A stretch of 60,657 nucleotides of DNA, counting the filler, from Nemertoderma westbladi (lineage: Eukaryota; Animalia; Xenacoelomorpha), in the NCBI GenBank assembly GCA_032718475.1. It is 3 parts of 3 records of this genome, joined end to end, with 100 filler letters (N's around TTAATTAATTAA, not from the genome) between each part and the next. Parts side by side here need not be neighbours in the genome. Positions count along the whole stretch, not along the records: positions 1 to 20,118 come from JAUCBJ010004864.1; positions 20,219 to 47,990 come from JAUCBJ010004715.1; 1 more part is not named here. The stretch is one strand, 5' to 3'. This document shows positions 1,670 through 47,990 of the stretch, in pieces; within the stretch, counting starts at the first letter, position 1; each line of letters starts with the position of its first letter. The notes under the pieces were generated by a model. It was not told where the DNA came from, did not search any database, and saw only the letters and a list, made by a program, of their open reading frames with translations. The position numbers and the translations under genes were made by a program.

Positions 1670-4600
1670 GGCACTAAAAGGTTCCAATTCATACATGGGC
1701 ACTAAAAGGTTCACATTTATACATGGGCACTAAAAGGTTCCAATTCATACATGGGCACTAAAAGTTCACATTGGCACTAAAAGGTTCAAATTCATACAAA
1801 GGCACTAAATGTTTACATTAGAGCACTAAAAGGTTCAAATTCATACAAAGGCACTAAAAGTTTAGATTGGCACTAAAAGGTCCCAATTCATACAAAGGCA
1901 CTAAAAGTTTACATTGGCACTAAAAGGTCCCAATTCATACAAAGGCACTAAAAGTTTACATTGGCACTAAAAGTTTCCTATTCATTCATGGGCACTAAAA
2001 GTTCACATTGGCACTAAAAGGTTCAAATTCATACAAAGGCACTAAAAGTTTACATTGGCACTAAAAGGTCCCAATTCATACATGGGCACTAAAATGTTCC
2101 AATTTATACATGGCCACTAAAAGGTTCAAATTCATACAAAGGCACTAAAAGTTTACATTGGCACTAAAAGTTTCCTATTCATACATGGGCACTAAAAGGT
2201 CCCAATTCATACAAAGGCGCTAAAAGTTTACATTGGCACTAAAAGGTCCCAATTCGGAGCCCCTAAAGGGACATTTGTGAAGAGATATATTTTTTTTTAG
2301 TAACACGTACGAACGTGTTACCTAACACGTTCGCACGTGATACTAACACGTTCGCGCATGATACTAACACGTTCGCACGTGATACTAACACGTTCGCACG
2401 TGTTACCTAACACGTTCGAACGTGTTAGTATCACGTGCGAACGTGGTACTAAAAAAAAATATATCTTCACAAATGTCCCTTTAGGGGCTCCGTACAATTC
2501 ATACAAAGGCACTAAAAGTTTATATTGGCACTAAAAGGTTCAAATTCATACAAAGGCACTAAAAGTTTACATTGGCACTAAAAGGTCCCAATTCATACAA
2601 AGGCACTAAAAGTTCACATTGGCACTAAAAGGTTCAAATTCATACAAAGGCACTAAAAGTTTACATGGGCACTAAAAGTTTCCTATTCATACATGGGCAC
2701 TAAAAGTTCACATTGGCACTAAAAGGTTCAAATTCATACAAAGGCACTAAAAGTTTACATTGGCACTAAAAGGTCCCAATTCATACATGGGCACTAAAAT
2801 GTTCCAATTCATACATGGCCACTAAAAGGTTCAAATTCATACAAAGGCACTAAAAGTTTACATTGGCACTAAAAGTTTCCTATTCATACATGGGCACAAA
2901 AGTTCACATTGGCACTAAAAGGTTCCAATTCATACATGGGCACTAAAAGGTTCACATTCATACATGGCCACTAAAAGGTTCAAATTCATACAAAGGCACT
3001 AAAAGTTTACATTGGCACTAAAAGTTTACATTGGCACTAAAAGGTCCCAATTCATACATGGGCACTAAAATGTTCCAATTCATACATGGCCACTAAAAGG
3101 TTCAAATTCATACAAAGGCACTAAAAGTTTACATTGGCACTAAAAGGTCCCAATTCATACATGGGCACTAAAATGTTCCAATTCATACATGGCCACTAAA
3201 AGGTTCAAATTCATACAAAGGCACTAAAAGTTTACATTGGCACTAAAAGTTTCCTATTCATACATGGGCACAAAAGTTCACATTGGCACTAAAAGGTTCA
3301 AATTCATACAAAGGCACTAAAAGTTTACATTGGCTCTAAAAGGTCCCAATTCATACATGGGCACTAAAATGTTCCAATTCATACATGGCCACTAAAAGGT
3401 TCAAATTCATACAAAGGCACTAAAAGTTTACATTGGCACTAAAAGTTTCCCATTCATACATGGGCACTATAAGTTCACATTGGCACTAAAAGGTTCAAAT
3501 TCATACAAAGGCACTAAAAGTTTACATTGGCACTAAAAGGTCCCAATTCATACATGGGCACTAAAATGTTCCAATTCATACATGGCCACTAAAAGGTTCA
3601 AATTCATACAAAGGCACTAAAAGTTTACATTGGCACTAAAAGTTTCCTATTCATACATGGGCACAAAAGTTCACATTGGCACTAAAAGGTTCAAATTCAT
3701 ACATGGGCACTAAAAGGTTCAGATTCATACATGGCCACTAAAAGGGTCAAATTCATACAAAGGCACTAAAAGTTTACATTGGCACTAAAAGGTCCCAATT
3801 CATACATAGGCACTAAAAGTTCACATTGGCACTAAAAGGTTCAAATTCATACATGGCCACTAAAAGGTTCACATTCATACAAAGGCACTAAAAGTTTACA
3901 TTGGCACTAAAAGTTTCCCATTCATACATGGGCACTAAAAGTTCACATTGGCACTAAAAGGTTCACATTCATACATGGCCACTAAAAGGTTCAAATTCAT
4001 ACAAAGGCACTAAAAGTTTACATTGGCACTAAAAGTTTACATTGGCACTAAAAGGTCCCAATTCATACATGGGCACTAAAATGTTCCAATTCATACATGG
4101 CCACTAAAAGGTTCAAATTCATACAAAGGCACTAAAAGTTTACATTGGCACTAAAAGTTTCCCATTCATACATGGGCACTAAAAGTTCACATTGGCACTA
4201 AAAGGTTCAAATTCATACATGGCCACTAAAAGGTTCAAATTCATACAAAGGCACTAAAAGTTTACATTGGCACTAAAAGTTTCCCATTCATACATGGGCA
4301 CTAAAAGTTCACATTGGCACTAAAAGGTTCACATTCATACATGGCCACTAAAAGGTTCAAATTCATACAAAGGCACTAAAAGTTTACATTGGCACTAAAA
4401 GTTTCCCATTCATACATGGGCACTAAAAGTTCACATTGGCACTAAAAGGTTCACATTCATACATGGCCACTAAAAGGTTCAAATTCATACAAAGGCACTA
4501 AAAGTTTACATTGGCACTAAAAGTTTCCCATTCATACATGGGCACTAAAAGTTCACATTGGCACTAAAAGGTTCAAATTCATACAAAGGCTCTAAAAGTT

Positions 4601-5690
4601 TACATTGGCACTAAAAGGTTCACATTCATGCATGGCCACTAAAAGGTTCAAAGTCATACAAAGGCACTAAAAGTTTACATTGGCACTAAAAGTTTCCCAT
4701 TCATACATGGGCACTAAAAGTTCACATTGGCACTAAAATGTTCAAATTCATACAAAGGCACTAAAAGTTTACATTGGCACTAAAAGGTCCCAATTCATAC
4801 ATGGGCACTAAAATGTTCCAATCCATACATGGCCACTAAAAGGTTCAAATTCATACAAAGGCGCTAAAAGTTTACATTGGCACTAAAAGTTTCCTATTCA
4901 TACATAGGCACAAAAGTTCACATTGGCACTAAAAGGTTCCAATTCATACATGGGCACTAAAAGGTTCACATTCATACATGGCCACTAAAAGGTTCAAATT
5001 CATACAAAGGCACTAAAAGTTTACATTGGCACTAAAAGTTTCCTATTCATACATGGGCACTAAAAGTTCACATTGGCACTAAAAGGTTCAAATTCATACA
5101 AAGGCACTAAAAGTTTACATTGGCACTAAAAGTTTCCAATTCATACATGGGCACGAAAAGTTTACATTAGAGCACTAAAAGGTTCCAATTCATACATGGG
5201 CACTAAAATGTTCCAATTCATACAAAGGCACTAAAAGTTTACATTGGCACTAAAAGTTTCCAATTCATACATGGGGACTAAAAGTTTACATTAGAGCACT
5301 AAAAGGTTCCAATTCATACATGGGCACGAAAAGTTTACATTAGAGCACTAAAAGGTCCCAATTCATACATGGGCACTAAAATGTTCCAATTCATACATGG
5401 CCACTAAAAGGTTCAAATTCATACAAAGGCACTAAAAGTTTACATTGGCACTAAAAGTTTCCAATTCATACATGGGGACTAAAAGTTTACATTAGAGCAC
5501 TAATAGGTTCCAATTCATACATGAGCACTAAAAGGTTCCAATTCATACATTGGCACGAAAAGTTTACATTAGAGCACTAAAAGGTTCCAATTCATACATG
5601 GGCATTAAAATGTTCCAATTCATACATGGGCACTAAAAGGTTCCAACTCATACTTGGGCACTAAAAGGTTCCAATTCATACATGGGCACG
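1670..5690. repeat. Satellite array of mixed 19-20 bp and 28 bp units (ggcactaaaag core)
   Basis: About 4 kb of ggcactaaaagtttacatt / ggcactaaaaggttccaattcatacatg variants. Confidence 0.97.
2255..2494. mobile_element. MITE inserted into the satellite, with internal ~21 bp repeats
   Basis: TIRs cggagcccctaaagggacatttgtgaaga / tcttcacaaatgtccctttaggggctccg(ta); caat(t) on both sides; internal taacacgttcgcacgtga repeats. Confidence 0.85.
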
Positions 5691-10036: not shown

Positions 10037-10403
10037 TTACTTCCCATTAGTAACTTTTCGCACTGCGCCATATTTATTACTAAGACTATTAGTTAGAGGT
10101 TTTGTGTTTCTCAGTAAGAGATCCATTTGGGAATCTCTTTTCGTTTTGTATTTGTTCCCCTTTATTTTATAGGGAACGGAGATCTTTCCTGAGGAACCAG
10201 AATTCGCAATGTTTTTGGAGACTTCGTATTTAAACTTCCCGCCTTTTTTGGCCCGTAGACCGGTGTTCTTTCCAATACCAAATTTCCTCTTTAGAGTTGC
10301 GAATCTTGTTTTCGGCTTTTTGATCTCCTCCGTGTCTGACTCACAATCATCGACTTCTTCTTTCTCCTTCCCAATCGATTTTTGATCTGATGGCATTCCG
10401 TAT
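10037..10403 (-). CDS. Terminal exon of a minus-strand gene, probably the Sushi gene (Lys-rich tail)
   Basis: Acceptor tttttatag|A TAC GGA ATG (phase 2) matches the upstream donor phase; open frame to TAA at 10037. Confidence 0.7.
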
Positions 10404-11008
10404 CTATAAAATATAATGAATGATATTTTCTTTTTCTTTTGTATCTTCTATTTTCTTTACATAGGTACGGTGTGAAGCTTATATTATAAAGTAATCTACA
10501 AATGCCGCTTTTTAAACATAGATATCGTGCCTCAAACGCTACGCCCGAAAATTGTGTTGCCTCGAAGATGGCACTCCACAAACAAAATCATATGAATCCG
10601 CTTGGCAAAATTGGTCATTTGTTTGTGGGGCATTGTTGTTATGCGATTTGGTGATCTTGATGAAAAGATGGACTTGCAAATGTTCCATATCTTTGGCGTT
10701 CAAAAACTGAATGTATTTTAATTTGATTGAAATATATAATATAAATATAAAAAAAGATATTATATATTTTTTTAATAAACGGGGAAATTTCGCAGCTCTC
10801 AGATAAATGAAAATATAATTCAGATCCACAAGGAGTTTCATTATTTTTAGGAGTAAAAATGCTCATTTGCTTTGTTAAATATATAGGGGGACTAATGCTT
10901 TATTTCAAGATTCATTAGGTACACCATTATGTAATCTAGAACTTTATATTACTTATATTGAGGTTACATGGTTGTGGAAAGCAAATAATTATCCATTATA
11001 AAGTTTAC

Positions 11009-11398
11009 CTTATTCCCAAATAATCGTTGAGTTGCTGTTCCTTTTCTTTCCGAACTTCAATCATCCAGGGCCATTCGAACTCCTCGGTCATCACGCTCAC
11101 GTTGGCCAACCCGACACTGTCGGAGCTCTCCGCAGTGCCGACACCGCGGTCCGTCCGCAGATCGAACCCATCCCGAACCGCCGAGGTTCCTGTCTCCCGA
11201 ACTCCGGCGATCGGTTCCTCGATGGCGGAACCCGAGCGTTCCGTGGTGGGGGCTGGAGGCGACGCGAGTTTAATAATCGGGGAGGTTTGAGTTCCGTGAC
11301 GCGATCGGCGGGAGATTACCTGGACTCCTTTATCGTGGGGCGTCTTGCCTTTCTTACGGCGTCTGTTATGTGAGACAGGGGGAACTATTGACGCAATT
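11009..11398 (-). CDS. Internal exon (IASIVPP...DYLGIR), probably the Sushi gene
   Basis: GC-rich open frame bounded by ttgaatag| and AG|gtaaac; phase 2-2, consistent with both neighbours. Confidence 0.72.
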
Positions 11399-11689
11399 CT
11401 ATTCAATTGTTACGTATTGGTTTCCAAATGTTTAAATTTGTGTTCTTCTTGCAGAACAGTTGCCAATAATTCTTCAATAAAAAACAGAATTCAATAAATT
11501 ATTATCTGTATTTTTATTAGAAGAGCGTTTAGGGCTTATTACTGTAAAAGTATTATGTATGTATTTATGTGTATATCATGTAAACTCCTCCGAAGCTTTA
11601 GCTCGTCCGTCAATGATATTATTAGACTCAATGATAGCAATGATGGCAGATGGATACTCGTATCCACTGGAAACTCGTTGCGTTCGTTC

Positions 11690-11885
11690 GTTTGTTACCA
11701 AACTTTCGATTCTTTCTAAACTTTTGCCGGACTACATACGTACCAAGTTTGGTTTAATTTCATCAAGGAATAACAGAGTTATTAGCGATCAAAAATTTAC
11801 GACGACAGACGACGACGACGACAGACAACTCGTTAATGGCACCCATATGCTAAGGCTTCGCTCACTTCGTGGCTCGCCCGACAAT
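11690..11885 (+). mobile_element. (GAC)n-containing dispersed repeat, 3' part (Helentron/HINE-like)
   Basis: gacgac tract followed by ctaaggcttcgctcacttcgtggctcgccc, the same terminal motif as copies near 49220, 49915 and 53010. Confidence 0.6.
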
Positions 11886-12051
11886 GATATTGTAACAAAA
11901 ACAATAAACGGAAGTCAATACCTTGTATTTCCAGTATAACTTTATTTAATTTGCGGAAATTGCTATTACTTGCTTAGATGTTCCCCTGGCGTGGCGAGGT
12001 TATTTCCCCGGCGGCGATATACAGTAAATATATATGATTATTATTACATAC

Positions 12052-12646
12052 TTTTGCGTCAAGAGACCCCCCTCCCCTACCCGCCTTCTGTTTGTCTCCC
12101 CTTCTTTAATTTTTTCAGAGATTTCGCCTGGGAGTTGCGAACGCTTTGGAAGGATGTAGGTAGAAGGTCCTACATGCTGCACGAACTGCTCGGGAGGCGG
12201 CGGTAAATACTGCCCGTTGTCACCTGCAGGGTGAGGCTGGATCGGGGACGGGGGCCCATCGTTCCCGAGTTGTTTCTCCAGGGTTTTAGCGAGCGCGATG
12301 CTCGTTGCGAGCCACATATCGGCGATGTTAACGTCCTTGTGGTTGTAGAGCCCCGGCTCGGACGGGTAGTAGAATAGTTCCGGTTCCGGGTGTTGGAACT
12401 CCGTTCCGAGCTCCCGCTCTCGCAACGTCCTCGCGGCCTCCAGTTCGCTCACCGTAGGCGACGGAAACCGAACGTCAGCTTCAGTATCAACCCGCGCTAC
12501 GTATTGGGCGATCCGTTTAATAAGCGCTCGAGGTTTTATAAAAGAGAAGAAACGACGTCTCTCATTGAGTAATTCGCGTTTTAAATGCTGTTTCGCTTGG
12601 TTATGACTTCGAATATCGTCGACATTCAAATAGTCAATTTCTCGTT
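12052..12646 (-). CDS. Internal exon (REIDYLNVDD...GGLLTQK), probably the Sushi gene
   Basis: 595-nt GC-rich open frame, acceptor ttttattcag|, donor AA|gtatgt (phase 1-2). Confidence 0.75.
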
Positions 12647-14770: not shown

Positions 14771-15209
14771 ATTTGCTGTTCCATAGGATAATACATAAAA
14801 TTATATGAATATACTGCTACATATATTTTCTAGAATCCCGTATCAGAGCAATTTCTAAGAAAAGAGTCAAATTTTAGGAAAAAATGGTATCTTACAACAT
14901 TTATAGAACATTTATTTAAAATTATACGAAAATAAATTTAGTTAGTTTCCGTAGCGGCATGCGAAAATTAACAATAAACAGCATTTACGGGACTTATAAT
15001 TCGTTATGTTAGATTTACTCTAGGTATTCTAGGATATTGGAACATTGAATTTGCTTTCAATTTACTAATAATGGATAAATTTACTAATAAGATTTTTTTT
15101 TTATATAGTATTATTAATATCTGAAAAGCTTAAATTTATACAACGACTGGTAATTAGTTACGAGTATAGTCCACCGCTAACTCTGCGTTGTATTGACGAA
15201 TGTAGTTGT

Positions 15210-20118: not shown

Positions 20119-20218
20119 NNNNNNNNNNNNNNNNNNNNNNNNNNNNNNNNNNNNNNNNNNNNTTAATTAATTAANNNNNNNNNNNNNNNNNNNNNNNNNN
20201 NNNNNNNNNNNNNNNNNN
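20119..20218. other. Scaffold gap with TTAATTAATTAA linker
   Basis: N runs flanking an artificial six-frame-stop spacer. Confidence 0.98.
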
Positions 20219-21435: not shown

Positions 21436-21498
21436 GAGTAGGTGGATCCTCGCAAGCCAGTTCGCATTGAAATTCTGGATGTTGATTCCATTTTCCGC
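21403..21498 (-). CDS. Sushi gene exon 3 (GKWNQHPEFQCELACEDPPTPPTHGLVLGAS)
   Basis: ttaacag| acceptor, cag|gtaagg donor, phase 1-1; completes Sushi 1 (W..C) and starts Sushi 2 (C..PP...HG). Confidence 0.85.
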
Positions 21499-23920: not shown

Positions 23921-24100
23921 CTGTAGTGCACTGGACAATGATTGCATTTTGACTAGCAGTTGAAACATATCCGTCCAGACAAGCATAGACTAACTTCTCC
24001 CCGATGGCATAGATGTTGGAATGCTTTGCGATAACAGATAGTATATGGGCTCTCGGGTGTGGTAGAGCTGGGGGATCTGTGCAATATTCATCACACTTTC
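23921..24100 (-). CDS. Sushi gene exon 2 (KCDEYCTDPPALPH...YAIGEKLVYACLDGY...VQCTT)
   Basis: Sushi/CCP pattern C..PP, Y..G....Y.C..GY, C; aatttag| and CAG|gttaga; 180 nt, phase 1-1. Confidence 0.88.
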
Positions 24101-24140
24101 CTAAATTAATAACAAATTAAAATAATCGTATTAATTATAT

Positions 24141-31337: not shown

Positions 31338-31559
31338 GGAAGCGGTTGACTCGGCGTATCTTTACAGCAACCTAACGGCTATCCTTGATGACCTATTGGA
31401 AGGGTTTGAATCCAAGTCACCCGGAATTAAGTTGGAAACAATTCATTTCGTTAAGCGGTGCCTCCAGCGGGCAACACCGGCATCGCTAAAGAAGGACATA
31501 CTGAAACCGTTAGGGGGCGCTCTAACAAAACGCTTAGGTGAACAGCTACCAGAAATTCG
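31338..31559 (+). CDS. CKAP5: ch-TOG/XMAP215 internal exon (TOG2 HEAT repeats)
   Basis: EAVDSAY..KSPGIKLET..LKKDILKPLGGAL..QLPEIR resembles recalled CKAP5 EAIDAIF..KNPTIKQQT..LPKSLLKPF..SAPEVR; ctacag| and CG|gtgagt. Confidence 0.9.
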
Positions 31560-31677
31560 GTGAGTTTGGAAGAACAGCAACCTGAAATTTTGTAAGTTTG
31601 GAAGAACAGTAACCAGAAATAAAAATATAGTAAGATCTGATTGAGAGTGATTTGGTTATGTCGTCATTGTTTTTTAG

Positions 31678-31855
31678 TGATGCGGCATCAGAAGGCCTTG
31701 CAACTATGTGGAAAGTGATGGGAGACAAACCGATGAACCAATTCCTAAACGATCTCGATAAATTGAAGATGGATAAAATCCGAGAGTTTTATGAAACAGT
31801 GGAGCTCATTGGTAAAGGGAAACCTGGTGGGACCGTGGACGCTAAAACTACCAAG
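31678..31855 (+). CDS. CKAP5: ch-TOG internal exon (end of TOG2)
   Basis: DAASEGLATMWKVMGDKPMNQFLNDLDKLKMDKIRE; tttttag| and AAG|gtaggg; phases consistent. Confidence 0.92.
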
Positions 31856-32426: not shown

Positions 32427-32547
32427 CCAGACGCGCTTAGTAAACCGACGACTGGTGGTCCCGCCGCCGCTCCGCCTTGGAAGAAGAAATCGACAGTCCA
32501 GGGAGGTAAACCGACGGCTGGTAGTGGAGGGCAGGAAGGCAAAAAAG
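32427..32547 (+). CDS. CKAP5: ch-TOG internal exon (basic TOG2-TOG3 linker)
   Basis: cctcag|PDALSKPTTGGPAAAPPWKKK..GQEGKK G|gtgagt; phase 0-1 links the flanking exons. Confidence 0.82.
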
Positions 32548-35500
32548 GTGAGTGAGAGATCGGTAGTGGAGGGAGGTAAACCAACGGCTGGTAGTGGAGG
32601 GCAGGAAGGCAAAAAAGGTGAGTGAGAGATCGGTAGTGGAGGGCAGGAAGGCAAAAAAGGTGAGTGAGAGATCGGTAGTGGAGGGAGGTAAACCAACGGC
32701 TGGTAGTGGAGGACAGGAAGGCAAAAAAGGTGAGTGAGAGATCGGTAGTGGAGGGCAGGAAGGCAAAAAAGGTGAGTGAGAGATCGGTAGTGGAGGGGGG
32801 TAAACCAACGGCTGATAGTGGAGGGCAGGGAGGCAAAAAAGGTGAGTGAGAGATCGGTAGTGGAGGACAGGAAGGCAAAAAAGGTGAGTGAGAGATCGGT
32901 AGTGGAGGGAGGTAAACCAACGGCTGATAGTGGAGGGCAGGGAGGCAAAAAAGGTGAGTGAGAGATCGGTAGTGGAGGGCAGGAAGGCAAAAAAGGTGAG
33001 TGAGAGATCGGTAGTGGAGGGCAGGAAGGCAAAAAATGTGAGTGAGAGATCGGTAGTGGAGGGCAGGAAGGCAAAAAAGGTGAGTGAGAGATCGGTAGTG
33101 GAGGGCAGGAAGGCAAAAAAAGGTGAGTGAGAGATCGGTAGTGGAGGGGGGTAAACCAACGGCTGATAGTGGAGGGCAGGAAGGCAAAAAAGGTGAGTGA
33201 GAGATCGGTAGTGGAGGACAGGAAGGCCAAAAAGGTGAGTGAGAGATCGGTAGTGGAGGGAGGTAAACCAACGGCTGGTAGTGGAGGGCAGGAAGGCAAA
33301 AAAGGTGAGTGAGAGATCGGTAGTGGAGGGCTGGAAGGCAAAAAAGGTGAGTGAGAAATCGGTAGTGGAGGGCAGGAAGGCAAAAAAGGTGAGTGAGAGA
33401 TCGGTAGTGGAGGGAGGTAAACCAACGGCTGGTAGTGGAGGGCAGGAAGGCAAAAAAGGTGAGTGAGAGATCGGAAGTGGAGGGAGGTAAACCAACGGCT
33501 GGTAGTGGAGGGCAGGAAGGCAAAAAAGGTGAGTGAGAGATCGGTAGTGGAGGGAGGTTAACCAACGGCTGGTAGTGGAGGGCAGGAAGGCAAAAAAGGT
33601 GAGTGAGAGATCGGTAGTGGAGGGCAGGAAGGCAAAAAAGGTGAGTGAGAGATCGGTAGTGGAGGGAGGTAAACCAACGGCTGGTAGTGGAGGACAGGAA
33701 GGCAAAAAAGGTGAGTGAGAGATCGGTAGTGGAGGGCAGGAAGGCAAAAAAGGTGAGTGAGAGATCGGTAGTGGAGGGGGGTAAACCAACGGCTGATAGT
33801 GGAGGGCAGGGAGGCAAAAAAGGTGAGTGAGAGATCGGTAGTGGAGGGCAGGAAGGCAAAAAAGGTGAGTGAGAGATCGGTAGTGGAGGGCAGGAAGGCA
33901 AAAAAGGTGAGTGAGAGATCGGTAGTGGAGGGCAGGAAGGCAAAAAAGGTGAGTGAGAGATCGGTAGTGGAGGGCAGGAAGGCAAAAAAGGTGAGTGAGA
34001 GATCGGTAGTGGAGGGGGGTAAACCAACGGCTGATAGTGGAGGGCAGGAAGGCAAAAAAGGTGAGTGAGAGATCGGTAGTGGAGGACAGGAAGGCCAAAA
34101 AGGTGAGTGAGAGATCGGTAGTGGAGGGAGGTAAACCAACGGCTGGTAGTGGAGGGCAGGAAGGCAAAAAATGTGAGTGAGAGATCGGTAGTGGAGGGCT
34201 GGAAGGCAAAAAAGGTGAGTGAGAAATCGGTAGTGGAGGGCAGGAAGGCAAAAAAGGTGAGTGAGAGATCGGTAGTGGAGGGAGGTAAACCAACGGCTGG
34301 TAGTGGAGGGCAGGAAGGCAAAAAAGGTGAGTGAGAGATCGGTAGTGGAGGGCAGGAAGGCAAAAAAGGTGAGTGAGAGATCGGTAGTGGAGGGCAGGAA
34401 GGCAACAAAGGTGAGTGAGAGATCGGTAGTGGAGGTTAGGAAGGCCAAAAAAGGTGAGTGAGAGATCGGTAGTGGAGGGCAGGAAGGAAAAAGGTGAGTG
34501 AGAGATCGGTAGTGGAGGGCAGGAAGGCAACAAAGGTGAGTGAGAGATCGGTAGTGGAGGTTAGGAAGGGCAAAAAAGGTGAGTGAGAGATCGGTAGTGG
34601 AGGGCAGGAAGGCAAAAAAGGTGAGTGAGAGATCGGTAGTGGAGGGCAGGAAGGCAAAAAAAGGTGAGTGAGAGATCGGTAGTGGAGGGCAGGAAGGCAA
34701 AAAAGGTGAGTGAGAGATCGGTAGTGGAGGGCAGGAAGGCAAAAAAGGTGAGTGAGAGATCGGTAGTGGAGGGAGGTAAACCAACGGTTGGTAGTGGAGG
34801 GCAGGAAGGCAAAAAAGGTGAGTGAGAGATCGGTAGTGGAGGACAGGAAGGCAAAAAAGGTGAGTGAGAGATCGGTAGTGGAGGGAGGTAAACCAACGGC
34901 TGGTAGTGGAGGGCAGGAAGGCAAAAAAGGTGAGTGAGAGATCGGTAGTGGAGGACAGGAAGGCAAAAAAGGTGAGTGAGAGATCGGTAGTGGAGGGAGG
35001 TAAACCAACGGCTGGTAGTGGAGGACAGGAAGGCCAAAAAGGTGAGTGAGAGATCGGTATAGTGGAGGGAGGTAAACCAACGGCTGGTAGTGGAGGGCAG
35101 GAAGGCAAAAAAGGTGAGTGAGAGATCGGTAGTGGAGGGCAGGAAGGCAACAAAGGTGAGTGAGAGATCGGTAGTGGAGGGCAGGAAGGCAAAAAAGGTG
35201 AGTGAGAGATCGGTAGTGGAGGGCAGGAAGGCAACAAAGGTGAGTGAGAGATCGGTAGTGGAGGGCAGGAAGGCAAAAAAGGTGAGTGAGAGATCGGTAG
35301 TGGAGGGCAGGAAGGCAACAAAGGTGAGTGAGAGATCGGTAGTGGAGGGCAGGAAGGCAAAAAAAGGTGAGTGAGAGATCGGTAGTGGAGGGAGGTAAAC
35401 CAACGGCTGGTAGTGGAGGGCTGGAAGGCAAAAAAGGTGAGTGAGAGATCGGTAGTGGAGGGCAGGAAGGCAAAAAAGGTGAGTGAGAGATCGGTAGTGG

Positions 35501-38500
35501 AGGGCAGGAAGGCAAAAAATGTGAGTGAGAGATCGGTAGTGGAGGGAGGTAAACCAACGGCTGGTAGTGGAGGGCAGGAAGGCAAAAAAGGTGAGTGAGA
35601 GATCGGAAGTGGAGGGCAGGAAGGCAAAAAAGGTGAGTGAGAGATCGGTAGTGGAGGAAGGTAAACCAACGGCTGGTAGTGGAGGGCAGGAAGGCAAAAA
35701 AGGTGAGTGAGAGATCGGTAGTGGGGGGCAGGAAGGCAAAAAAGGTGAGTGAGAGATCGGTAGTGGAGGGCAGGAAGGCAAAAAAGGTGAGTGAGAGATC
35801 GGTAGTGGGGGGCAGGAAGGCAAAAAAGGTGAGTGAGAGATCGGTAGTGGAGGAAGGTAAACCAACGGCTGGTAGTGGAGGGCAGGAAGGCAAAAAAGGT
35901 GAGTGAGCGATCGGTAGTGGAGGAAGGTAAACCAACGGCTGGTAGTGGGGGGCAGGAAGGCAAAAAAGGTGAGTGAGAGATCGGTAGTGGAGGGCAGGAA
36001 GGCAAAAAAGGTGAGTGAGAGATCGGTAGTGGGGGGCAGGAAGGCAAAAAAGGTGAGTGAGAGATCGGTAGTGGAGGGAGGTAAACCAACGGCTGGTAGT
36101 GGAGGGCAGGAAGGCAAAAAAGGTGAGTGAGAGATCGGTAGTGGGGGGCAGGAAGGCAAAAAAGGTGAGTGAGAGATCGGTAGTGGGGGGCAGGAAGGCA
36201 AAAAAGGTGAGTGAGAGATCGGTAGTGGAGGGCAGGAAGGCAAAAAAGGTGAGTGAGAGATCGGTAGTGGGGGGCAGGAAGGCAAAAAAGGTGAGTGAGA
36301 GATCGGTAGTGGAGGGAGGTAAACCAACGGCTGGTAGTGGAGGGCAGGAAGGCAAAAAAGGTGAGTGAGAGATCGGTAGTGGGGGGCAGGAAGGCAAAAA
36401 AGGTGAGTGAGAGATCGGTAGTGGAGGGCAGGAAGGCAAAAAAGGTGAGTGAGAGATCGGTAGTGGAGGGAGGTAAACCAACGGCTGGTAGTGGAGGCCA
36501 GGAAGGCAAAAAAGGTGAGTGAGAGATCGGTAGTGGAGGGAGGTAAACCAACGGCTGGTAGTGGCGGGCAGGAAGGCAAAAAAGGTGAGTGAGAGATCGG
36601 TAGTGGAGGGAGGTAAACCAACGGCTGGTAGTGGAGGGCTGGAAGGCAAAAAAGGTGAGTGAGAGATCGGTAGTGGAGGGAGGTAAACCAACGGCTGGTA
36701 GTGGAGGGCTGGAAGGCAAAAAAGGTGAGTGAGAGATCGGTAGTGGAGGGCAGGAAGGCAAAAAAGGTGAGTGAGAGATCGGTAGTGGAGGGAGGTAAAC
36801 CAACGGCTGGTAGTGGAGGGCTGGAAGGCAAAAAAGGTGAGTGAGAGATCGGTAGTGGAGGGCAGGAAGGCAAAAAAGGTGAGTGAGAGATCGGTAGTGG
36901 AGGGCAGGAAGGCAAAAAAGGTGAGTGAGAGATCGGTAGTGGAGGGAGGTAAACCAACGGCTGGTAGTGGAGGCCAGGAAGGCAAAAAAGGTGAGTGAGA
37001 GATCGGTAGTGGAGGGAGGTAAACCAACGGCTGGTAGTGGAGGGCTGGAAGGCAAAAAAGGTGAGTGAGAGATCGGTAGTGGAGGGCAGGAAGGCAAAAA
37101 AGGTGAGTGAGAGATCGGTAGTGGAGGGCAGGAAGGCAAAAAAGGTGAGTGAGAGATCGGTAGTGGAGGGCAGGAAGGCAAAAAAGGTGAGTGAGAGATC
37201 GGTAGTGGAGGGAGGTAAACCAACGGCTGGTAGTGGAGGGCAGGAAGGCCTAAAAGGTGAGTGACAGATCGGTAGTGGAGGGCAGGAAGGCAAAAAAGGT
37301 GAGTGAGAGATCAGTAGTGGAGGGCAGGAAGGCAAAAAAGGTGAGTGAGAGATCGGTAGTGGAGGGAGGTAAACCAACGGCTGGTAGTGGAGGGCAGGAA
37401 GGCCAAAAAGGTGAGTGACAGATCGGTAGTGGAGGGCAGGAAGGCAAAAAAGGTGAGTGAGAGATCAGTAGTGGAGGGCAGGAAGGCAAAAAAAGTGAGT
37501 GAGAGATCGGTAGTAGAGGGAGGTAAACCAACGGCTGGTAGTGGCGGGCAGGAAGGCAAAAAAGGTGAGTGAGAGATCGGTAGTGGAGGGCAGGAAGGCA
37601 AAAAAGGTGAGTGAGAGATCGGTAGTGGATGGAGGTAAACCAACGGCTGGTAGTGGAGGGCTGGAATGCAAAAAAGGTGAGTGAGAGATCGGTAGTGGAG
37701 GGCAGGAAGGCAAAAAAAGTGAGTGAGAGATCGGTAGTAGAGGGAGGTAAACCAACGGCTGGTAGTGGAGGGCTGGAAGGCAAAAAAGGTGAGTGAGAGA
37801 TCGGTAGTGGAGGGCAGGAAGGCAAAAAAGGTGAGTGAGAGATCGGTAGTGGAGGGAGGTAAACCAACGGCTGGTAGTGGAGGGCAGGAAGGCAAAAAAG
37901 GTGAGTGAGAGATCGGTAGTGGAGGGCAGGAAGGCAAAAAAGGTGAGTGAGAGATCGGTAGTGGATGGAGGTAAACCAACGGCTGGTAGTGGAGGGCTGG
38001 AATGCAAAAAAGGTGAGTGAGAGATCGGTAGTGGAGGACAGGAAGGCAACAAAGGTGAGTGAGAGATCGGTAGTGGAGGGCAGGAAGGCAAAAAGGTGAG
38101 TGAGAGATCGGTAGTGGAGGGCAGGAAGGCAAAAAAGGTGAGTGAGAGATCGGTAGTGGAGGGAGGTAAACCAACGGCTGGTAGTGGAGGGCAGGAAGGC
38201 AAAAAAGGTGAGTGAGAGATCGGTAGTGGAGGGCAGGAAGGCAAAAAAGGTGAGTGAGAGATCGGTAGTGGAGGGAGGTAAACCAACGGCTGGTAGTGGA
38301 GGGCTGGAAGGCAAAAAAGGTGAGTGAGAGATCAGTAGTGGAGGGCAGGAAGGCAAAAAAAGTGAGTGAGAGATCGGTAGTAGAGGGAGGTAAACCAACG
38401 GCTGGTAGTGGAGGGCTGGAAGGCAAAAAAGGTGAGTGAGAGATCGGTAGTGGAGGGCAGGAAGGCAAAAAAGGTGAGTGAGAGATCGGTAGTGGAGGGA

Positions 38501-39642
38501 GGTAAACCAACGGCTGGTAGTGGAGGGCAGGAAGGCAAAAAAGGTGAGTGAGAGATCGGTAGTGGAGGGCAGGAAGGCAACAAAGGTGAGTGAGAGATCG
38601 GTAGTGGAGGGAGGTAAACCAACGGCTGGTAGTGGAGGGCTGGAAGGCAAAAAAGGTGAGTGAGAGATCAGTAGTGGAGGGCAGGAAGGCAAAAAAGGTG
38701 AGTGAGAGATCGGTAGTGGAGGGCAGGAAGGCAAAAAAGGTGAGTGAGAGATCGGTAGTGGAGGGAGGTAAACCAACGGCTGGTAGTGGAGGGCTGGAAG
38801 GCAAAAAAGGTGAGTGAGAGATCAGTAGTGGAGGGCAGGAAGGCAAAAAAAGTGAGTGAGAGATCGGTAGTAGAGGGAGGTAAACCAACGGCTGGTAGTG
38901 GAGGGCTGGAAGGCAAAAAAGGTGAGTGAGAGATCGGTAGTGGAGGGCAGGAAGGCAAAAAAGGTGAGTGAGAGATCGGTAGTGGAGGGAGGTAAACCAA
39001 CGGCTGGTAGTGGAGGGCAGGAAGGCAAAAAAGGTGAGTGAGAGATCGGTAGTGGAGGGCAGGAAGGCAAAAAAGGTGAGTGAGAGATCGGTAGTGGATG
39101 GAGGTAAACCAACGGCTGGTAGTGGAGGGCTGGAATGCAAAAAAGGTGAGTGAGAGATCGGTAGTGGAGGACAGGAAGGCAACAAAGGTGAGTGAGAGAT
39201 CGGTAGTGGAGGGCAGGAAGGCAAAAAGGTGAGTGAGAGATCGGTAGTGGAGGGCAGGAAGGCAAAAAAGGTGAGTGAGAGATCGGTAGTGGAGGGAGGT
39301 AAACCAACGGCTGGTAGTGGAGGGCAGGAAGGCAAAAAAGGTGAGTGAGAGATCGGTAGTGGAGGGCAGGAAGGCAAAAAAGGTGAGTGAGAGATCGGTA
39401 GTGGAGGGAGGTAAACCAACGGCTGGTAGTGGAGGGCTGGAAGGCAAAAAAGGTGAGTGAGAGATCGGTAGTGGGGGGGCAGGAAGGCAAAAAAGGTGAG
39501 TGAGAGATCGGTAGTGGGGGGCAGGAAGGCAAAAAAGGTGAGTGAGAGATCGGTAGTGGAGGGCAGGAAGGCAAAAAAGGTGAGTGAGAGATCGGTAGTG
39601 GAGGGCAGGAAGGCAAAAAGGTGAGTGAGAGATCGGTAGTGG
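32500..39642. repeat. 7.1-kb array of 42-bp and 28-bp units derived from the ch-TOG exon end plus donor
   Basis: Units ggtagtggagggcaggaaggcaaaaaag|gtgagtgagagatc and ggtagtggagggaggtaaaccaacggct. Confidence 0.98.
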
Positions 39643-39743: not shown

Positions 39744-39925
39744 TTAAAGATAAGAAAGTTTCTAAGCCGAAAGAGACGAAACAACCAGTGGGGCCGCCAT
39801 CCGAGAGACAACTTGCATACGAGGAAGCGGTTGAGATCGTCAAGGAAACCTTGGGGGAGAAAACAATGGGCCAATTAGAGAACGCCACGTGGAAGGAAAG
39901 ATTGGAGGCGACAGAGTTCATACAG
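39744..39925 (+). CDS. CKAP5: ch-TOG internal exon (start of TOG3)
   Basis: LENATWKERLEA matches the TOG first-HEAT WKERL motif; ttttag| and CAG|gttgtt; phase 1-0. Confidence 0.9.
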
Positions 39926-40037: not shown

Positions 40038-40251
40038 AATTACATCTCATCGGCTGAACCCAACTCTGTTCCAATGCAAGCCGTACTGCTGGCCATGGCA
40101 GGAAAGAAATCCGATTGGAGAGAAAATAACTTCCAGGTCTTAATGGCTAAATTCAAGATCGTCGCCCAATTGGCTACCCATTGTAAGGTAACCATTCAAT
40201 CAGCTGAAGTCGCCATGTCTGGATTGGTTGACAAACTCGGTGACGCCAAAG
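40038..40251 (+). CDS. CKAP5: ch-TOG internal exon (TOG3)
   Basis: KKSDWRENNFQV..K..IV, GLVDKLGDAK; ttctag| and AAAG|gttcgt. Confidence 0.92.
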
Positions 40252-41924: not shown

Positions 41925-44900
41925 GTGGTATGATCGATCTCTGTGTTCTTCTATTTATAGGCGTCCCCTGCCCAATCTGCACTCACTGCTCTAGAGGTAT
42001 GATCGATCTCTGTGTTCTTCCATTTATAGGCGCCCCCGGCCCAATCAGCACTCACTGCTCTAGAGATATGATCGATCTCTGTGTTCTTCCATTTATAGGC
42101 GTCCCCCGGCCCAATATGCACTCACTGCTCTAGAGGTATGATCGATCTCTGTGTTCTTCCATTTATAGGCGCCCCCCTGCCCAATCTGCACTCACTGCTC
42201 TAGAGGTATGATCGATCTCTGTGTTCTTCCATTTATAGGCGTCCCCCTGCCCAATCGGCACTCACTGCTCTAGAGGTATGATCGATCTCTGTGTTCTTCC
42301 ATTTATAGGCGTCCCCCGGCCCAATATGCACTCACTGCTCTAGAGGTATGATAGATCTCTGTGATCTTCCATTTATAGGCGTCCCCCGGCCCAATCTGCA
42401 CTCATTGCCCTAGAGATATGATCGATCTCTGTGTTCTTCCATTTATAGGCGCCCCCCTGCCCAATCTGCACTCACTGCCCTAGGTATGATCGATCTGTGT
42501 TCTTCCATTTATAGGTGGCCCCCCGGCCCAATATGCACTCACTGCTCTAGAGGTATGATCGATCTCTGTGTTCTTCCATTTATAGGCGTCCCCCGGCCCA
42601 ATCTGCACTCACTGCCCTAGGTATGATCGATCTGTGTTCTTCCATTTATAGGCGTCCCCCGGCCCAATCTGCACTCATTGCCCTAGAGATATGATCGATC
42701 TCTGTGTTCTTCCAATTATAGGCGCCCCCCTGCCCAATCTGCACTCACTGCCCTAGGTATGATCGATCTGTGTTCTTCCATTTATAGGTGGCCCCCCGGC
42801 CCAATATGCACTCACTGCTCTAGAGGTATGATCGATCTCTGTGATCTTCCATTTATAGGCGTCCCCCTGCCCAATCTGCACTCACTGCCCTAGGTATGAT
42901 CGATCTCTGTGTTCTTCCATTTATAGGCGCCCCCCTGCCCAATCTGCACTCACTGCTCTAGAGGTATGATCGATCTGTGTTCTTCCATTTATAGGTGGCC
43001 CCCCGGCCCAATATGCACTCACTGCTCTAGAGGTATGATAGATCTCTGTGATCTTCCATTTATAGGCGTCCCCTACCCAATCGGCACTCACTGCTCTAGA
43101 GATATGATCGATCTCTGTGTTCTTCCATTTATAGGCGCCCCCCTGCCCAATCTGCACTCACTGCCCTAGGTATGATCGATCTCTGTGTTCTTCCATTTAT
43201 AGGCGTCCCCCTGCCCAATCTGCACTCACTGCTCTAGAGGTATGATCGATCTCTGTGTTCTTCCATTTATAGGCGCCCCCCTGCCCAATCTGCACTCACT
43301 GCCCTAGGTATGATCGATCTGTGTTCTTCCATTTATAGGTGGCCCCCCGGCCCAATATGCACTCACTGCTCTAGAGGTATGATAGATCTCTGTGATCTTC
43401 CATTTATAGGCGTCCCCCGGCCCAATCTGCACTCACTGCTCTAGAGGTATGATAGATCTCTGTGTTCTTCCATTTATAGGCGCCCCCCTGGCCAATCTGC
43501 ACTCACTGCTCTAGAGGTATGATCGATCTCTGTGATCTTCCATTTATAGGCGCCCCCCTGCCCAATCTGCACTCACTGCTCTAGAGGTATGATAGATCTC
43601 TGTGATCTTCCATTTATAGGCGTCCCCTACCCAATCGGCACTCACTGCTCTAGAGGTATGATCGATCTCTGTGTTCTTCCATTTATAGGCGCCCCCGGCA
43701 CAATCTGCACTCACTGCTCTAGAGGTATGATCGATCTCTGTGTTCTTCCATTTATAGGCGTCCCCCTGCCCAATCTGCACTCACTGCCCTAGGTATGATC
43801 GATCTGTGTTCTTCCATTTATAGGCGCCCCTCTGCCCAATCTGCACTCACTGCTCTAGAGGTATGATCGATCTCTGTGTTCTTCCATTTATAGGCGCCCC
43901 CCTGCCCAATCTGCACTCACTGCTCTAGAGGTATGATCGATCTCTGTGTTCTTCCATTTATAGGCGCCCCCCTGCCCAATCTGCACTCACTGCTCTAGAG
44001 GTATGATCGATCTCTGTGTTCTTCCATTTATAGGCGCCCCCCTGCCCAATCGGCACTCACTGCTCTAGAGGTATGATCGATCTCTGTGTTCTTCCATTTA
44101 TAGGCGCCCCCGGCACAATCTGCACTCACTGCTCTAGAGGTATGATCGATCTCTGTGTTCTTCCATTTATAGGCGTCCCCCTGCCCAATCTGCACTCACT
44201 GCCCTAGGTATGATCGATCTGTGTTCTTCCATTTATAGGCGCCCCTCTGCCCAATCTGCACTCACTGCTCTAGAGGTATGATCGATCTCTGTGTTCTTCC
44301 ATTTATAGGCGCCCCCCTGCCCAATCTGCACTCACTGCTCTAGAGGTATGATCGATCTCTGTGTTCTTCCATTTATAGGCGCCCCCCTGCCCAATCTGCA
44401 CTCACTGCTCTAGAGGTATGATCGATCTCTGTGTTCTTCCATTTATAGGCGCCCCCCTGCCCAATCTGCACTCACTGCTCTAGAGGTATGATCGATCTCT
44501 GTGTTCTTCCATTTATAGGCGCCCCCCTGCCCAATCTGCACTCACTGCTCTAGAGGTATGATCGATCTCTGTGTTCTTCCATTTATAGGCGCCCCCCTGC
44601 CCAATCTGCACTCACTGCTCTAGAGGTATGATCGATCTCTGTGTTCTTCCATTTATAGGCGCCCCCCTGCCCAATCTGCACTCACTGCTCTAGAGGTATG
44701 ATCGATCTCTGTGATCTTCCATTTATAGGCGCCCCCCTGCCCAATCTGCACTTACTGCTCTAGAGGTATGATCGATCTCTGTGTTCTTCCATTTATAGGC
44801 GTCCCCCTGCCCAATCTGCACTCACTGCTCTAGAGGTATGATCGATCTCTGTGATCTTCCATTTATAGGCGCCCCCCTGCCCAATCTGCACTCACTGCTC

Positions 44901-47900
44901 TAGAGGTATGATCGATCTCTGTGATCTTCCATTTATAGGCGCCCCCCTGCCCAATCTGCACTCACTGCTCTAGAGGTATGATCGATCTCTGTGTTCTTCC
45001 ATTTATAGGCGTCCCCTACCCAATCTGCACTCACTGCTCTAGAGGTATGATCGATCTCTGTGATCTTCCATTTATAGGCGCCCCCCTGCCCAATCTGCAC
45101 TCACTGCTCTAGAGGTATGATCGATCTCTGTGTTCTTCCATTTATAGGCGTCCCCTACCCAATCTGCACTCACTGCTCTAGAGGTATGATCGATCTCTGT
45201 GTTCTTCCATTTATAGGCGTCCCCTACCCAATCTGCACTCACTGCTCTAGAGGTATGATCGATCTCTGTGTTCTTCCATTTATAGGCGTCCCCTACCCAA
45301 TCTGCACTCACTGCTCTAGAGGTATGATCGATCTCTGTGTTCTTCCATTTATAGGCGTCCCCTACCCAATCTGCACTCACTGCTCTAGAGGTATGATCGA
45401 TCTCTGTGTTCTTCCATTTATAGGCGTCCCCTACCCAATCTGCACTCACTGCTCTAGAGGTATGATCGATCTCTGTGTTCTTCCATTTATAGGCGTCCCC
45501 TACCCAATCTGCACTCACTGCTCTAGAGGTATGATCGATCTCTGTGTTCTTCCATTTATAGGCGTCCCCTACCCAATCTGCACTCACTGCTCTAGAGGTA
45601 TGATCGATCTCTGTGATCTTCCATTTATAGGCGCCCCTCTGCCCAATCTGCACTCACTGCTCTAGAGGTATGATCGATCTCTGTGATCTTCCATTTATAG
45701 GCGCCCCTCTGCCCAATCTGCACTCACTGCTCTAGAGGTATGATAGATCTCTGTGTTCTTCCATTTTTAGGCGTCCCCCTGCCCAATCTGCACTCACTGC
45801 TCTAGAGGTATGATCGATCTCTGTGATCTTCCATTTATAGGCGCCCCCCTGCCCAATCTGCACTCACTGCTCTAGAGGTATGATCGATCTCTCTGTTCTT
45901 CCATTTATAAGCGTCCCCCTGCCCAATCTGCACTCACTGCTCTAGGTATGATCGATCTGTGTTCTTCCATTTATAGGTGGCCCCCCGGCCCAATATGCAC
46001 TCACTGCTCTAGAGGTATGATAGATCTCTGTGATCTTCCATTTATAGGCGTCCCCTACCCAATCGGCACTCACTGCTCTAGAGGTATGATCGATCTCTGT
46101 GTTCTTCCATTTATAGGCGTCCCCCGGCCCAATATGCACTCACTGCTCTAGAGGTATGATCGATCTCTGTGTTCTTCCATTTATAGGCGCCCCCCTGCCC
46201 AATCTGCACTCACTGCTCTAGAGGTATGATCGATCTCTGTGTTCTTCCATTTATAGGCGTCCCCCTGCCCAATCTGCACTCACTGCTCTAGAGGTATGAT
46301 CGATCTCTGTGTTCTTCCATTTATAGGCGCCCCCCTGCCCAATCTGCACTCACTGCTCTAGAGGTATGATCGATCTCTGTGTTCTTCCATTTATAGGCGT
46401 CCCCCGGCCCAATATGCACTCGCTGCTCTAGAGGTATGATAGATCTCTGTGTTCTTCCATTTATAGGCGTCCCCCTGGCCAATCTGCACTCACTGCTCTA
46501 GAGGTATGATCGATCTCTGTGTTCTTCCATTTATAGGCGACCCCTGCCCAATCTGCACTCACTGCCCTAGGTATGATCGATCTCTGTGTTCTTCCATTTA
46601 TAGGTGGCCCCCGGCCCAATCTGCACTCACTGCTCTAGAGGTATGATCGATCTCTGTGTTCTTCCATTTATAGGCGTCCCCCGGCCCAATCTGCACTTAC
46701 TGCCCTAGGTATGATCGATCTGTGTTCTTCCATTTATAGGTGGCCCCCCGGCCCAATCTGCACTCACTGCTCTAGAGGTATGATAGATCTCTGTGATCTT
46801 CCATTTATAGGCGTCCCCCGGCCCAATCTGCACTCACTGCTCTAGAGGTATGATCGATCTCTGTGTTCTTCCATTTATAGGCGCCCCCCTGCCCAATCTG
46901 CACTCACTGCTCTAGAGGTATGATCGATCTCTGTGTTCTTCCATTTATAGGCGTCCCCCGGCCCAATATGCACTCACTGCTCTAGAGGTATGATAGATCT
47001 CTGTGATCTTCCATTTATAGGCGTCCCCCGGCCCAATATGCACTCACTGCTCTAGAGGTATGATAGATCTCTGTGATCTTCCATTTATAGGCGCCCCCCT
47101 GCCCAATCTGCACTCACTGCTCTAGAGGTATGATCGATCTCTGTGTTCTTCCATTTATAGGCGTCCCCCGGCCCAATATGCACTCACTGCTCTAGAGGTA
47201 TGATAGATCTCTGTGATCTTCCATTTATAGGCGTCCCCCGGCCCAATATGCACTCACTGCTCTAGAGGTATGATAGATCTCTGTGATCTTCCATTTATAG
47301 GCGTCCCCTGCCCAATCTGCACTCACTGCTCTAGAGGTATGATCGATCTCTGTGATCTTCCATTTATAGGCGCCCCCTGCCCAATCTGCACTCACTGCTC
47401 TAGAGGTATGATCACTGCTCTAGAGGTATGATCGATCTCTGTGTTCTTCCATTTATAGGCGTCCCCGGCCCAATCTGCACTCACTGCTCTAGAGGTATGA
47501 TCGATCTCTGTGTTCTTCCATTTATAAGCGTCCCCCTGCCCAATCTGCACTCACTGCTCTAGAGGTATGATCGATCTCTGTGATCTTCCATTTATAGGCG
47601 CCCCCTGCCCAATCTGCACTCACTGCTCTAGAGGTATGATCACTGCTCCTAGAGGTATGATCGATCTCTGTGATCTTCCATTTATAGGCGCCCCCCCTGC
47701 CCAATCTGCACTCACTGCTCTAGAGGTATGATCGATCTCTGTGTTCTTCCATTTATAGGCGCCCCCGGCACAATCTGCACTCACTGCTCTAGAGGTATGA
47801 TAGATCTCTGTGTTCTTCCATTTATAGGCGCCCCCGGCACAATCTGCACTCACTGCTCTAGAGGTATGATCGATCTCTGTGTTCTTCCATTTATAAACGT

Positions 47901-47990
47901 CCCCCGGCCCAATCTGCACTCACTGCTCTAGAGGTATGATAGATCTCTGTGTTCCCATTTATAGGTGGCCCCCCTGCCCAATCAGCACTC
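41925..47990. repeat. ~60-bp array, about 100 copies, derived from the acceptor plus 5' end of the next ch-TOG exon
   Basis: Unit tgttcttccatttatag|gcgcccccctgcccaatctgcactcactgctctagaggtatgatcgatctctg. Confidence 0.97.
47965..47990 (+). CDS. CKAP5: Probable start of the next ch-TOG exon, truncated by the gap
   Basis: tttatag|GT GGC CCC CCT GCC CAA TCA GCA CTC gives DAK-GGPPAQSAL(TAL), in register with recalled CKAP5 DVKCGNNAKEAMTAI; phase 1 fits. Confidence 0.65.

What the first reader, a model, noticed from the sequence alone, without database searches (positions are those of the whole stretch)
1670..47990. Window-wide pattern: large satellites are amplified splice junctions anchored on real exons
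Seen: four unrelated arrays copy an exon edge plus its splice site and are continuous with an exon identifiable by translation (20219-21435, 24927-25503, 32500-39642, 41925-47990). A fifth (15210-20118) has the same form with its exon in the gap, and two more (1670-5690, 25984-26643) fit tentatively. Donor arrays extend 3' into the intron and acceptor arrays 5', so the authentic site is always the exon-proximal copy. Short exon/intron microhomologies mark unit boundaries (ggtagtgg, tccaccta, tcctacaagtagc). In the five coding cases, reading into the unit hits an in-frame stop within a few codons. Inference: a recurrent process generates or tolerates tandem amplification at splice junctions and inflates introns by kilobases, and the spliceosome must reject 10-100+ near-perfect decoy sites (exon definition, first-come choice or NMD). 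I do not know a named system for this.
Basis: partly seen in the sequence, partly recalled or inferred. Interest (0 to 1): 0.9.

Follow-up and report, generated by a model that had tools for sequence, protein, structure and literature searches.

The report
Kilobase-scale "mirage" repeats at splice junctions
In two genes of an unidentified animal, short DNA pieces that straddle exon-intron borders have been copied in tandem up to about 135 times, swelling introns by kilobases while the spliced RNA seen for three of them uses only the real border; this is an unusually large example of a known repeat type ("mirages"), most likely a harmless by-product of repeat expansion.

Summary
Real and enriched, but a known kind. 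Five of 16 scored tandem arrays span an exon-intron border (0.5 expected; p about 1e-4). Three lie in ch-TOG/XMAP215: donor 31559, donor 32547 (136 GT copies, 7.1 kb) and acceptor 47965 (about 87 copies, at least 6 kb). Spliced contigs from public runs use the exon-proximal site. Two more, donors 25477 and 21403, rest on an in-frame sushi-gene model without RNA. A second individual's DNA holds the arrays too, and one differs in copy number. These are "mirage" minisatellites, described in amphioxus and in human F7, CBS and 6-16 (PMC3087553, PMC1557585). The scan noted them before in other genomes. What differs is size: 87-136 copies against at most about 25 in the passages read. Arrays 1670 and 25984 are unsupported, since their motifs are at chance level. 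The microhomology claim cannot be tested and fails at 24927. Array 15210-20118 reads differently: both halves of its 41-nt unit look coding around CAG|GT. It may be an intron born wholly from amplified exon sequence (Rogers model; about 50%, no RNA).

The parts
31338..31559 (+). ch-TOG/XMAP215 exon (TOG2 end)
   Evidence: PDB 2qk2 E 3.9e-9; X4 contig on 31335-31558
31540..31620 (+). Small, diverged donor-junction duplication, 32 nt x 2.5; one unit fewer in individual X2
   Evidence: (X2 record 14 skips 31563-31594)
31678..31855 (+). ch-TOG exon (model)
   Evidence: in frame in the six-exon model, no stops
32427..32547 (+). ch-TOG exon whose 3' end seeds the 42/70-nt array; its donor is the one used
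   Evidence: X4 406-nt contig
32500..39642 (+). Donor-junction array: 42- and 70-nt units, 136 GTGAGT copies, 7.1 kb of a 7,196-nt intron
39744..39925 (+). ch-TOG exon
   Evidence: X4 contig; GT..AG joint to 40038
40038..40251 (+). ch-TOG exon (TOG3)
   Evidence: PDB 4y5j Mini spindles TOG3 E 1.5e-4; X4 and X5 contigs
41927..47990 (+). Acceptor-junction array: about 87 units of about 70 nt; 82 intact and 3 mutated acceptors; 73 units also carry an internal donor-like site; authentic exon at or in the following gap
25477..25864 (-). Exon 1 (signal peptide) of a sushi-domain gene
   Evidence: gene model; no RNA cover
24927..25503 (-). Donor-junction array, 47 nt x 12; distal end fused to a transposon interior
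   Evidence: X1 and X2 contigs both break at 25474
23921..24100 (-). Sushi gene exon 2; donor CAG|GTTAGA
   Evidence: Pfam Sushi E 2.2e-5
21403..21498 (-). Sushi gene exon 3: completes the first sushi repeat (G-x-W...C) and starts a second
   Evidence: in-frame model; motif reading recalled
20219..21446 (-). Donor-junction array, 80 nt x 15+, runs into the gap
   Evidence: multi-copy depth in X2
20119..20218 (.). Scaffold gap between two arrays; predicted to hold at least one sushi-gene exon
   Evidence: phase argument
15210..20118 (-). 41/38-nt array, 123 units: 74 with CAG|GTTAG, 49 lacking CAG; candidate intron made wholly of amplified coding sequence
15162..15229 (-). Candidate 68-nt exon after the last copy, with an in-phase GTAACT donor
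   Evidence: no RNA test
10037..12646 (-). Three downstream exons (12646-12052, 11362-11009, 10403-10037), open in frame with 15229-15162; no family, no hydrophobic helix
1665..5713 (.). Diverged 19/28-nt higher-order satellite ending about 70 nt upstream of a fibrinogen-domain gene's ATG; junction status unsupported
25984..26643 (.). 66-nt x 10 array about 120 nt upstream of the sushi gene's ATG; junction status unresolved
47991..48090 (.). Scaffold gap hiding the rest of the ch-TOG exon

Best explanation
Five arrays are tandem copies of 32-80-nt pieces that span an exon-intron border (three backed by spliced contigs, two by gene models), that is 'mirage' minisatellites, which likely began as short local duplications, likely grew by unequal exchange of multi-unit blocks, and likely persist as neutral passengers because splicing uses the exon-proximal site. 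Shown: unit anatomy, use of the exon-proximal site in three ch-TOG cases, presence in a second individual, copy-number difference at 31540, exact internal duplications of 400-600 nt. Inferred: the choice is by exon definition or 5'-to-3' scanning as in human F7; stray use of decoys gives early stops and would be cleared by NMD. Also inferred: the pile-up at junctions reflects a survival filter on GC-rich, exon-derived seeds in an AT-rich genome, since duplications wholly inside coding sequence are purged unless in frame.
For: Spliced contigs across the 7.2-kb and 7.7+-kb introns. Enrichment 5 of 16 against 0.49 expected. DNA contigs of X2, an individual with many base differences, break at the same array edges (25474/26048, 26614) and show multi-copy depth on the 80-, 42- and 70-nt units. 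Block duplications at spacings of 1133, 415 and 516 nt. All 48 array copies of the 70-mer's extra segment share one variant that the real exon lacks, pointing to a single founding event. Decoys are not being eroded: 15 of 15, 10 of 12, 82 of 85 intact. 1-kb bins over the three largest junction-type arrays are 48-54% GC, against mostly 31-46% elsewhere. The one array inside coding sequence (22585, 39 nt) is in frame. Same anatomy and silence are described for amphioxus mirages (PMC3087553, passages) and F7 (PMC1557585, abstract and introduction).
Against: RNA evidence is assembled contigs only, which drop rare forms, so low-level decoy use is not excluded; the tool labels X4 and X5 'DNA?', and I infer RNA from GT..AG joints and exon-only cover. 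In X5 a 72-nt repeat-unit contig has depth 143.5 against 18 for the spliced ch-TOG contig, which is unexplained and could mean abundant unspliced or decoy-spliced RNA. The filter model is not tested; enrichment survives tripling the site density only at P=0.011. Two of the five arrays have no RNA support. In human 6-16 and CBS proximal decoys are used (PMC1557585 introduction).
Confidence: 0.78

Rival explanations
1. A splicing- or transcription-coupled mutational process (R-loops, breaks at exon-nucleosome edges, small DNA circles) targets exon borders in this lineage and seeds the arrays.
For: Local enrichment about tenfold, including 3 of 3 arrays in ch-TOG. Similar arrays were noted in other invertebrate genomes by this scan (unchecked notes).
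Against: No genome is held, so no genome-wide test. The window was picked for this pattern. A GC-rich-seed plus survival filter predicts the same picture. 11 of 16 arrays are not at a known junction.
Confidence: 0.2
2. For 15210-20118 only: the array is a new intron born from a wholly exonic 41-nt segment containing CAG|GT (Rogers tandem-duplication model), the first copy giving the donor and the last the acceptor; internal copies could act as recursive splice points.
For: The 22 nt before the AG are 68% GC with 11 G, against 0-45% GC and 0-5 G in 12 modelled acceptors. The 9-mer CAG|GTTAGA equals the modelled donor at 23921. The unit plus the next 48 unique nt score best as coding in one frame (+9.7 bits; the 48 nt alone +6.0, reached by 3% of 340 intron windows), then GC drops from 0.44 to 0.21 after an in-phase GTAACT donor, and the frame stays open for 467 codons through three further exons. 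49 of 123 units have lost exactly the CAG, unlike the other arrays.
Against: No RNA or second allele was tested for this array. The upstream exon is in the gap. The Markov model is small and scored on its own training data; 1 of 9 post-donor intron windows reached +5.3. A first 41-nt duplication would be shorter than the shortest modelled introns (112, 118 nt) and frameshifting. A donor-only reading (exon in the gap spliced straight to 12646 in phase 1) and an acceptor-only reading also keep a frame.
Confidence: 0.5
3. The arrays are selected regulatory devices (decoy-driven NMD or intron delay tuning expression of ch-TOG and the sushi gene).
For: Decoys remain intact; high repeat depth in X5.
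Against: Copy number differs between individuals; units are young and homogenised, which explains intact decoys without selection; no decoy-spliced contig seen.
Confidence: 0.06
4. The arrays are assembly artefacts.
For: Three arrays end at scaffold gaps; exact lengths are unverified; depth on the 42-nt unit in X1 is about 23-fold, well below about 130 copies.
Against: Independent individual X2 breaks at the same edges with multi-copy depth; units carry structured variants and block duplications.
Confidence: 0.03

Closest known systems
Amphioxus 'mirages' (Adh3, globins BflGb6/BflGb9, troponin C, PGBD5); PMC3087553 and PMC3902484, passages read; Canestro 2002 not held
   Same: [quoted passage not shown]
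   Different: Copy numbers in the passages read are 2-7 (globins, PGBD5); here 87-136 copies and 5-7 kb, with three arrays in 17 kb of one gene.
Human junction VNTRs: F7 intron 7 (37 nt x 5-9), 6-16 (25 pseudo-sites), CBS intron 13 (15-20), LMNB2, PDGF; PMC1557585, abstract and introduction read
   Same: First unit spans the donor; identical pseudo-sites follow; the most upstream site is used (F7, shown by mutagenesis to follow oriented scanning).
   Different: Three to five times more copies than the largest listed; includes an acceptor-side array whose units are full decoy mini-exons; an invertebrate spliceosome.
Intron gain by tandem duplication of an AGGT-containing exon segment (Rogers 1989, as reviewed in PMC3443670, passages; PMC2812944, passages; PMC4974935, abstract)
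   Same: The 15210-20118 unit contains CAG|GT and both halves look coding.
   Different: Not met by the four main arrays, whose units include true intron sequence. For 15210 it would be a 123-copy, 4.9+-kb case; unproven.

Membership tests
Mirage / junction-spanning minisatellite | Repeat unit spans an exon-intron boundary of a real gene | tested here: met
   ch-TOG homology and spliced contigs for 3 arrays; in-frame sushi model for 2
Mirage / junction-spanning minisatellite | Head-to-tail tandem copies keep GT or AG signals | tested here: met
   136 GTGAGT; 15 of 15; 10 of 12; 82 of 85
Mirage / junction-spanning minisatellite | Regular splicing uses the authentic site | tested here: met
   3 of 3 RNA-testable arrays, at contig level only; minor forms not visible
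Mirage / junction-spanning minisatellite | Length polymorphism between individuals | tested here: inconclusive
   Met for 31540 (X2 one unit shorter); only a depth hint for the 7-kb array (2.6-fold in X2 against 23-fold in X1)
Mirage / junction-spanning minisatellite | Somatic instability (reported at amphioxus Adh3) | not testable with these tools
   needs single-molecule reads from tissues
Rogers-type intron gain (four main arrays and 31540) | Unit wholly exonic, AG|GT inside, array forms the whole intron | tested here: not met
   Intron part of the units does not match the neighbouring exon and read-through stops within 1-10 codons at donors
Rogers-type intron gain (15210-20118) | Unit wholly exonic with AG|GT | tested here: inconclusive
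   Composition and coding score favour it; upstream exon is in the gap
Rogers-type intron gain (15210-20118) | mRNA holds one unit; an allele or orthologue lacks the intron | not tested
   both read-laying runs went to other stretches; no homologue found

The most novel reading that the evidence does not exclude
The 4.9+-kb array at 15210-20118 is a young intron made of nothing but 123 copies of a 41-nt coding segment, spliced from the first CAG|GT to the last (possibly recursively, with 40% of internal sites already disarmed by loss of CAG), in a genome where junction amplification is a main route of intron growth and birth.
Probability: 0.35. Interest if true: 0.68.

Novelty: new member of a known kind. 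Interest (0 to 1): 0.36.

Why it matters
As a kind it is known. As material it is useful: over 130 near-identical donors, or over 80 acceptors, beside the real site make an extreme natural test of exon definition against scanning outside mammals, and of how tandem amplification inflates introns (here introns of 7.2 and 7.7+ kb beside introns of 112-571 nt). No genome-wide enrichment test of such arrays turned up in my searches (open-access library only), so this genome could supply one. If the 41-nt array is an intron born from coding sequence, it would be intron gain caught at an unusually clear stage. The arrays also break assemblies and mislead gene prediction.

Tried and rejected
No genome is held for this window, so no genome-wide test. 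The run search listed no holder on record as RNA; X4 and X5 turned out to carry spliced joints. X4 and X5 have no cover over the sushi-gene exons or 25984-26643: no evidence either way. Protein searches with the TOG3 exon and the 12.6-kb exon found nothing among longer proteins (weak evidence); the cardiolipin-synthase search used too strict a cut-off. Atlas hits for the 12.6-kb exon were at most 0.85 (leads only). The 41-nt unit had 0 exact matches in metagenome contigs. The organism was not identified: best cardiolipin-synthase match 44%; the named clusters among the top five were a sea urchin and a mite, whose hits are 35% and 37% identical. I first read exon 21498-21403 in another frame, splicing straight to 15229 (open for 497 codons); I dropped that reading because the phase-1 frame completes the sushi repeat of exon 24100-23921, but it remains a formal alternative. 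The 8093 array was rejected as a junction case. A 14-nt match of the 41-nt unit to a repeat at 41288 (E 0.006, 1 of 9 queries) is treated as chance. Canestro 2002 and Zhuo 2007 could not be read. No supplements were consulted.
Full report
Setting. The window is an animal scaffold piece with two 100-nt gaps (20119-20218, 47991-48090). No whole genome is held. The organism was not identified; its cardiolipin synthase is at most 44% identical to anything among 1.84 billion representatives. About 26.5 kb of the 60.7 kb lie in the tandem arrays scored.

Genes. The plus strand carries six exons of ch-TOG/XMAP215 (31338-31559, 31678-31855, 32427-32547, 39744-39925, 40038-40251, 47965-gap). They join in frame with no stop; two match solved TOG domains (2qk2, E 3.9e-9; Mini spindles TOG3 4y5j, E 1.5e-4). 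The minus strand carries a signal-peptide/sushi gene (25864-25477, 24100-23921, 21498-21403; 221 codons, no stop; Pfam Sushi on exon 2), a TRIM gene, a cardiolipin synthase, a fibrinogen-domain gene, and unnamed exons at 12646-10037.

RNA-level check. The run search gave six coded runs, none on record as RNA. Laying four of them showed that X4 and X5 contigs are spliced: a GT..AG joint 39925-40038 in X4, and exon-only cover. One 406-nt X4 contig runs from exon 32427-32547 straight into 39744, skipping the 7.1-kb array with its 136 GTGAGT copies: the first donor is used. X4 and X5 both join 40251 to a single copy of the 70-nt unit's exon part, and X5 continues into exon sequence found nowhere in the window. 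So the acceptor used is the exon-proximal one, at or inside the gap. 82 of 85 acceptors are intact and 73 units carry an internal donor-like site, so each is a potential mini-exon, yet none appears in these contigs. Contigs drop rare forms, so minor decoy use is not excluded. The sushi-gene arrays had no RNA cover and rest on the gene model.

Not an artefact. X1 may be the source sample and is not independent. X2 differs at many bases and comes from another study. Its contigs break at the same array edges as X1's (25474/26048, 26614), and it shows multi-copy depth on the 80-, 42- and 70-nt units. It has one unit fewer at 31540 and three fewer in the in-frame 39-nt repeat of cardiolipin synthase. 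Depth on the 42-nt unit is 2.6-fold single copy in X2 against 23-fold in X1, a hint of a much shorter allele; contig depth is a poor copy counter, and X5, labelled the same sample as X2, shows that unit at depth 143.5 against 18 for spliced ch-TOG, which I cannot explain. Exact array lengths remain unverified.

More than chance. With each array collapsed to one unit (35,041 nt) and 25 modelled splice sites, 5 of 16 arrays overlap a site against 0.49 expected (P=8e-5; 0.002 and 0.011 at double and triple site density; genic spans 5 of 9, P=3e-4; ch-TOG 3 of 3, P=0.004). The 15-kb array was left out because its sites were inferred from it. The window was selected for the pattern. A control matters for the tentative cases: 41-59% of random 40-66-nt unique windows contain a loose splice-like motif, so 1670-5690 and 25984-26643 are unsupported, though both end 70-120 nt upstream of a predicted start codon and could border untranslated exons.

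Claims that weaken. Use of the exon-proximal copy is what any junction-spanning duplication leaves as the only intact option. The boundary microhomologies are partial last units; at 24927 the 13-nt one runs into the interior of a transposon copy also seen near 8600. Stops on read-through come at 1-10 codons for donors but after 57 codons for the first decoy acceptor, and early stops are expected of intron sequence anyway.

Mechanism. Shown: exact internal duplications of at least 600, 400 and 200 nt at spacings of 1133, 415 and 516 nt in the 32-, 42- and 15-kb arrays, and one founding variant in all 48 array copies of the 70-mer's extra segment. Inferred: a short duplication across a junction, then minisatellite turnover by unequal exchange or conversion. 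Tolerance likely comes from exon definition or oriented scanning, shown for human F7 (PMC1557585, abstract and introduction), with NMD as a backstop. The junction excess is most simply a survival filter on GC-rich exon-derived seeds (large arrays 48-54% GC; the only array inside coding sequence is in frame). Junction-targeted mutation remains a rival at about 0.2.

The 41-nt array. But the sequence after the last copy also looks like an exon: best coding score in the frame that runs through the whole unit, an in-phase GTAACT donor at 15162, a sharp GC drop after it, and an open frame through three further exons. The 22 nt before the AG are unlike all 12 modelled acceptors (68% GC, 11 G). Both halves therefore look exonic, as in intron gain by duplication of an AGGT-containing exon segment (PMC3443670, passages). 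49 of 123 units have lost the CAG. Against this: no RNA test, the upstream exon is in the gap, the scoring model is small and self-trained, and a first 41-nt copy would be too short to splice if the 112-118-nt introns mark the minimum. I put it at about 0.5.

Comparison. Tandem repeats spanning exon-intron borders are named 'mirages' in amphioxus (Adh3, globins, troponin C, PGBD5): both borders can be copied, clusters vary in length, and splicing seems undisturbed (PMC3087553, PMC3902484; passages). Human cases reach 5-25 copies. The lead to the name came from earlier notes of this scan, seven of eight of which describe similar arrays in other genomes; I checked it in the papers. The arrays here meet the defining features that I could test. 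They differ in scale and density only. My searches of the open-access library found no genome-wide enrichment study and no case of recursive splicing through such an array; subscription papers were not searchable.

Verdict. Observation partly confirmed; new member of a known kind; interest 0.36, with a 0.35 chance of a more striking born-from-exon intron.

Noticed in passing
window 21991-31337: ch-TOG's X4 contig has 422 nt upstream of 31335 with no piece listed in 21330-31334 (table cut), and a motif scan found no convincing upstream TOG exon, so the TRIM, sushi and cardiolipin-synthase genes may be nested in a large ch-TOG intron. Cardiolipin synthase is itself nested on the same strand inside sushi-gene intron 2.
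   Followed up: partly
window 23317 (minus strand): An X4 contig upstream of cardiolipin synthase stops matching at a CAG and carries about 23 further 5' letters that were not displayed: a short first exon or a trans-spliced leader (record 17).
   Followed up: no
window 22585-22777: In-frame 39-nt coding repeat (13 residues x 5) in cardiolipin synthase; individual X2 has three units fewer.
   Followed up: partly
window 39575-39642: Repeat-unit contig in the RNA-like run X5 at depth 143.5 against 18 for spliced ch-TOG; unexplained.
   Followed up: no
window 24141-24625, 30804-31007, 27094-27170: Very high-copy MITE-like element (summed contig depth up to 1e5) whose left end is itself tandemly repeated 5.4 times at 24143.
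   Followed up: no
window 2256-2493: MITE-like inverted-repeat element with internal 21-nt repeats inserted into the 19/28-nt satellite.
   Followed up: no
window 49263-49400 (minus strand): Isolated exon-like ORF with canonical splice sites after the second gap; no Pfam hit.
   Followed up: partly
window 24720-24790: Stretch resembling, by eye, the 3' end of sushi exon 1; not recovered by the short blastn.
   Followed up: partly
window 5760-6850, 49950-50770, 52380-52915: LINE reverse-transcriptase fragments (recognition recalled), some beside (ACG)n-tailed short elements.
   Followed up: no
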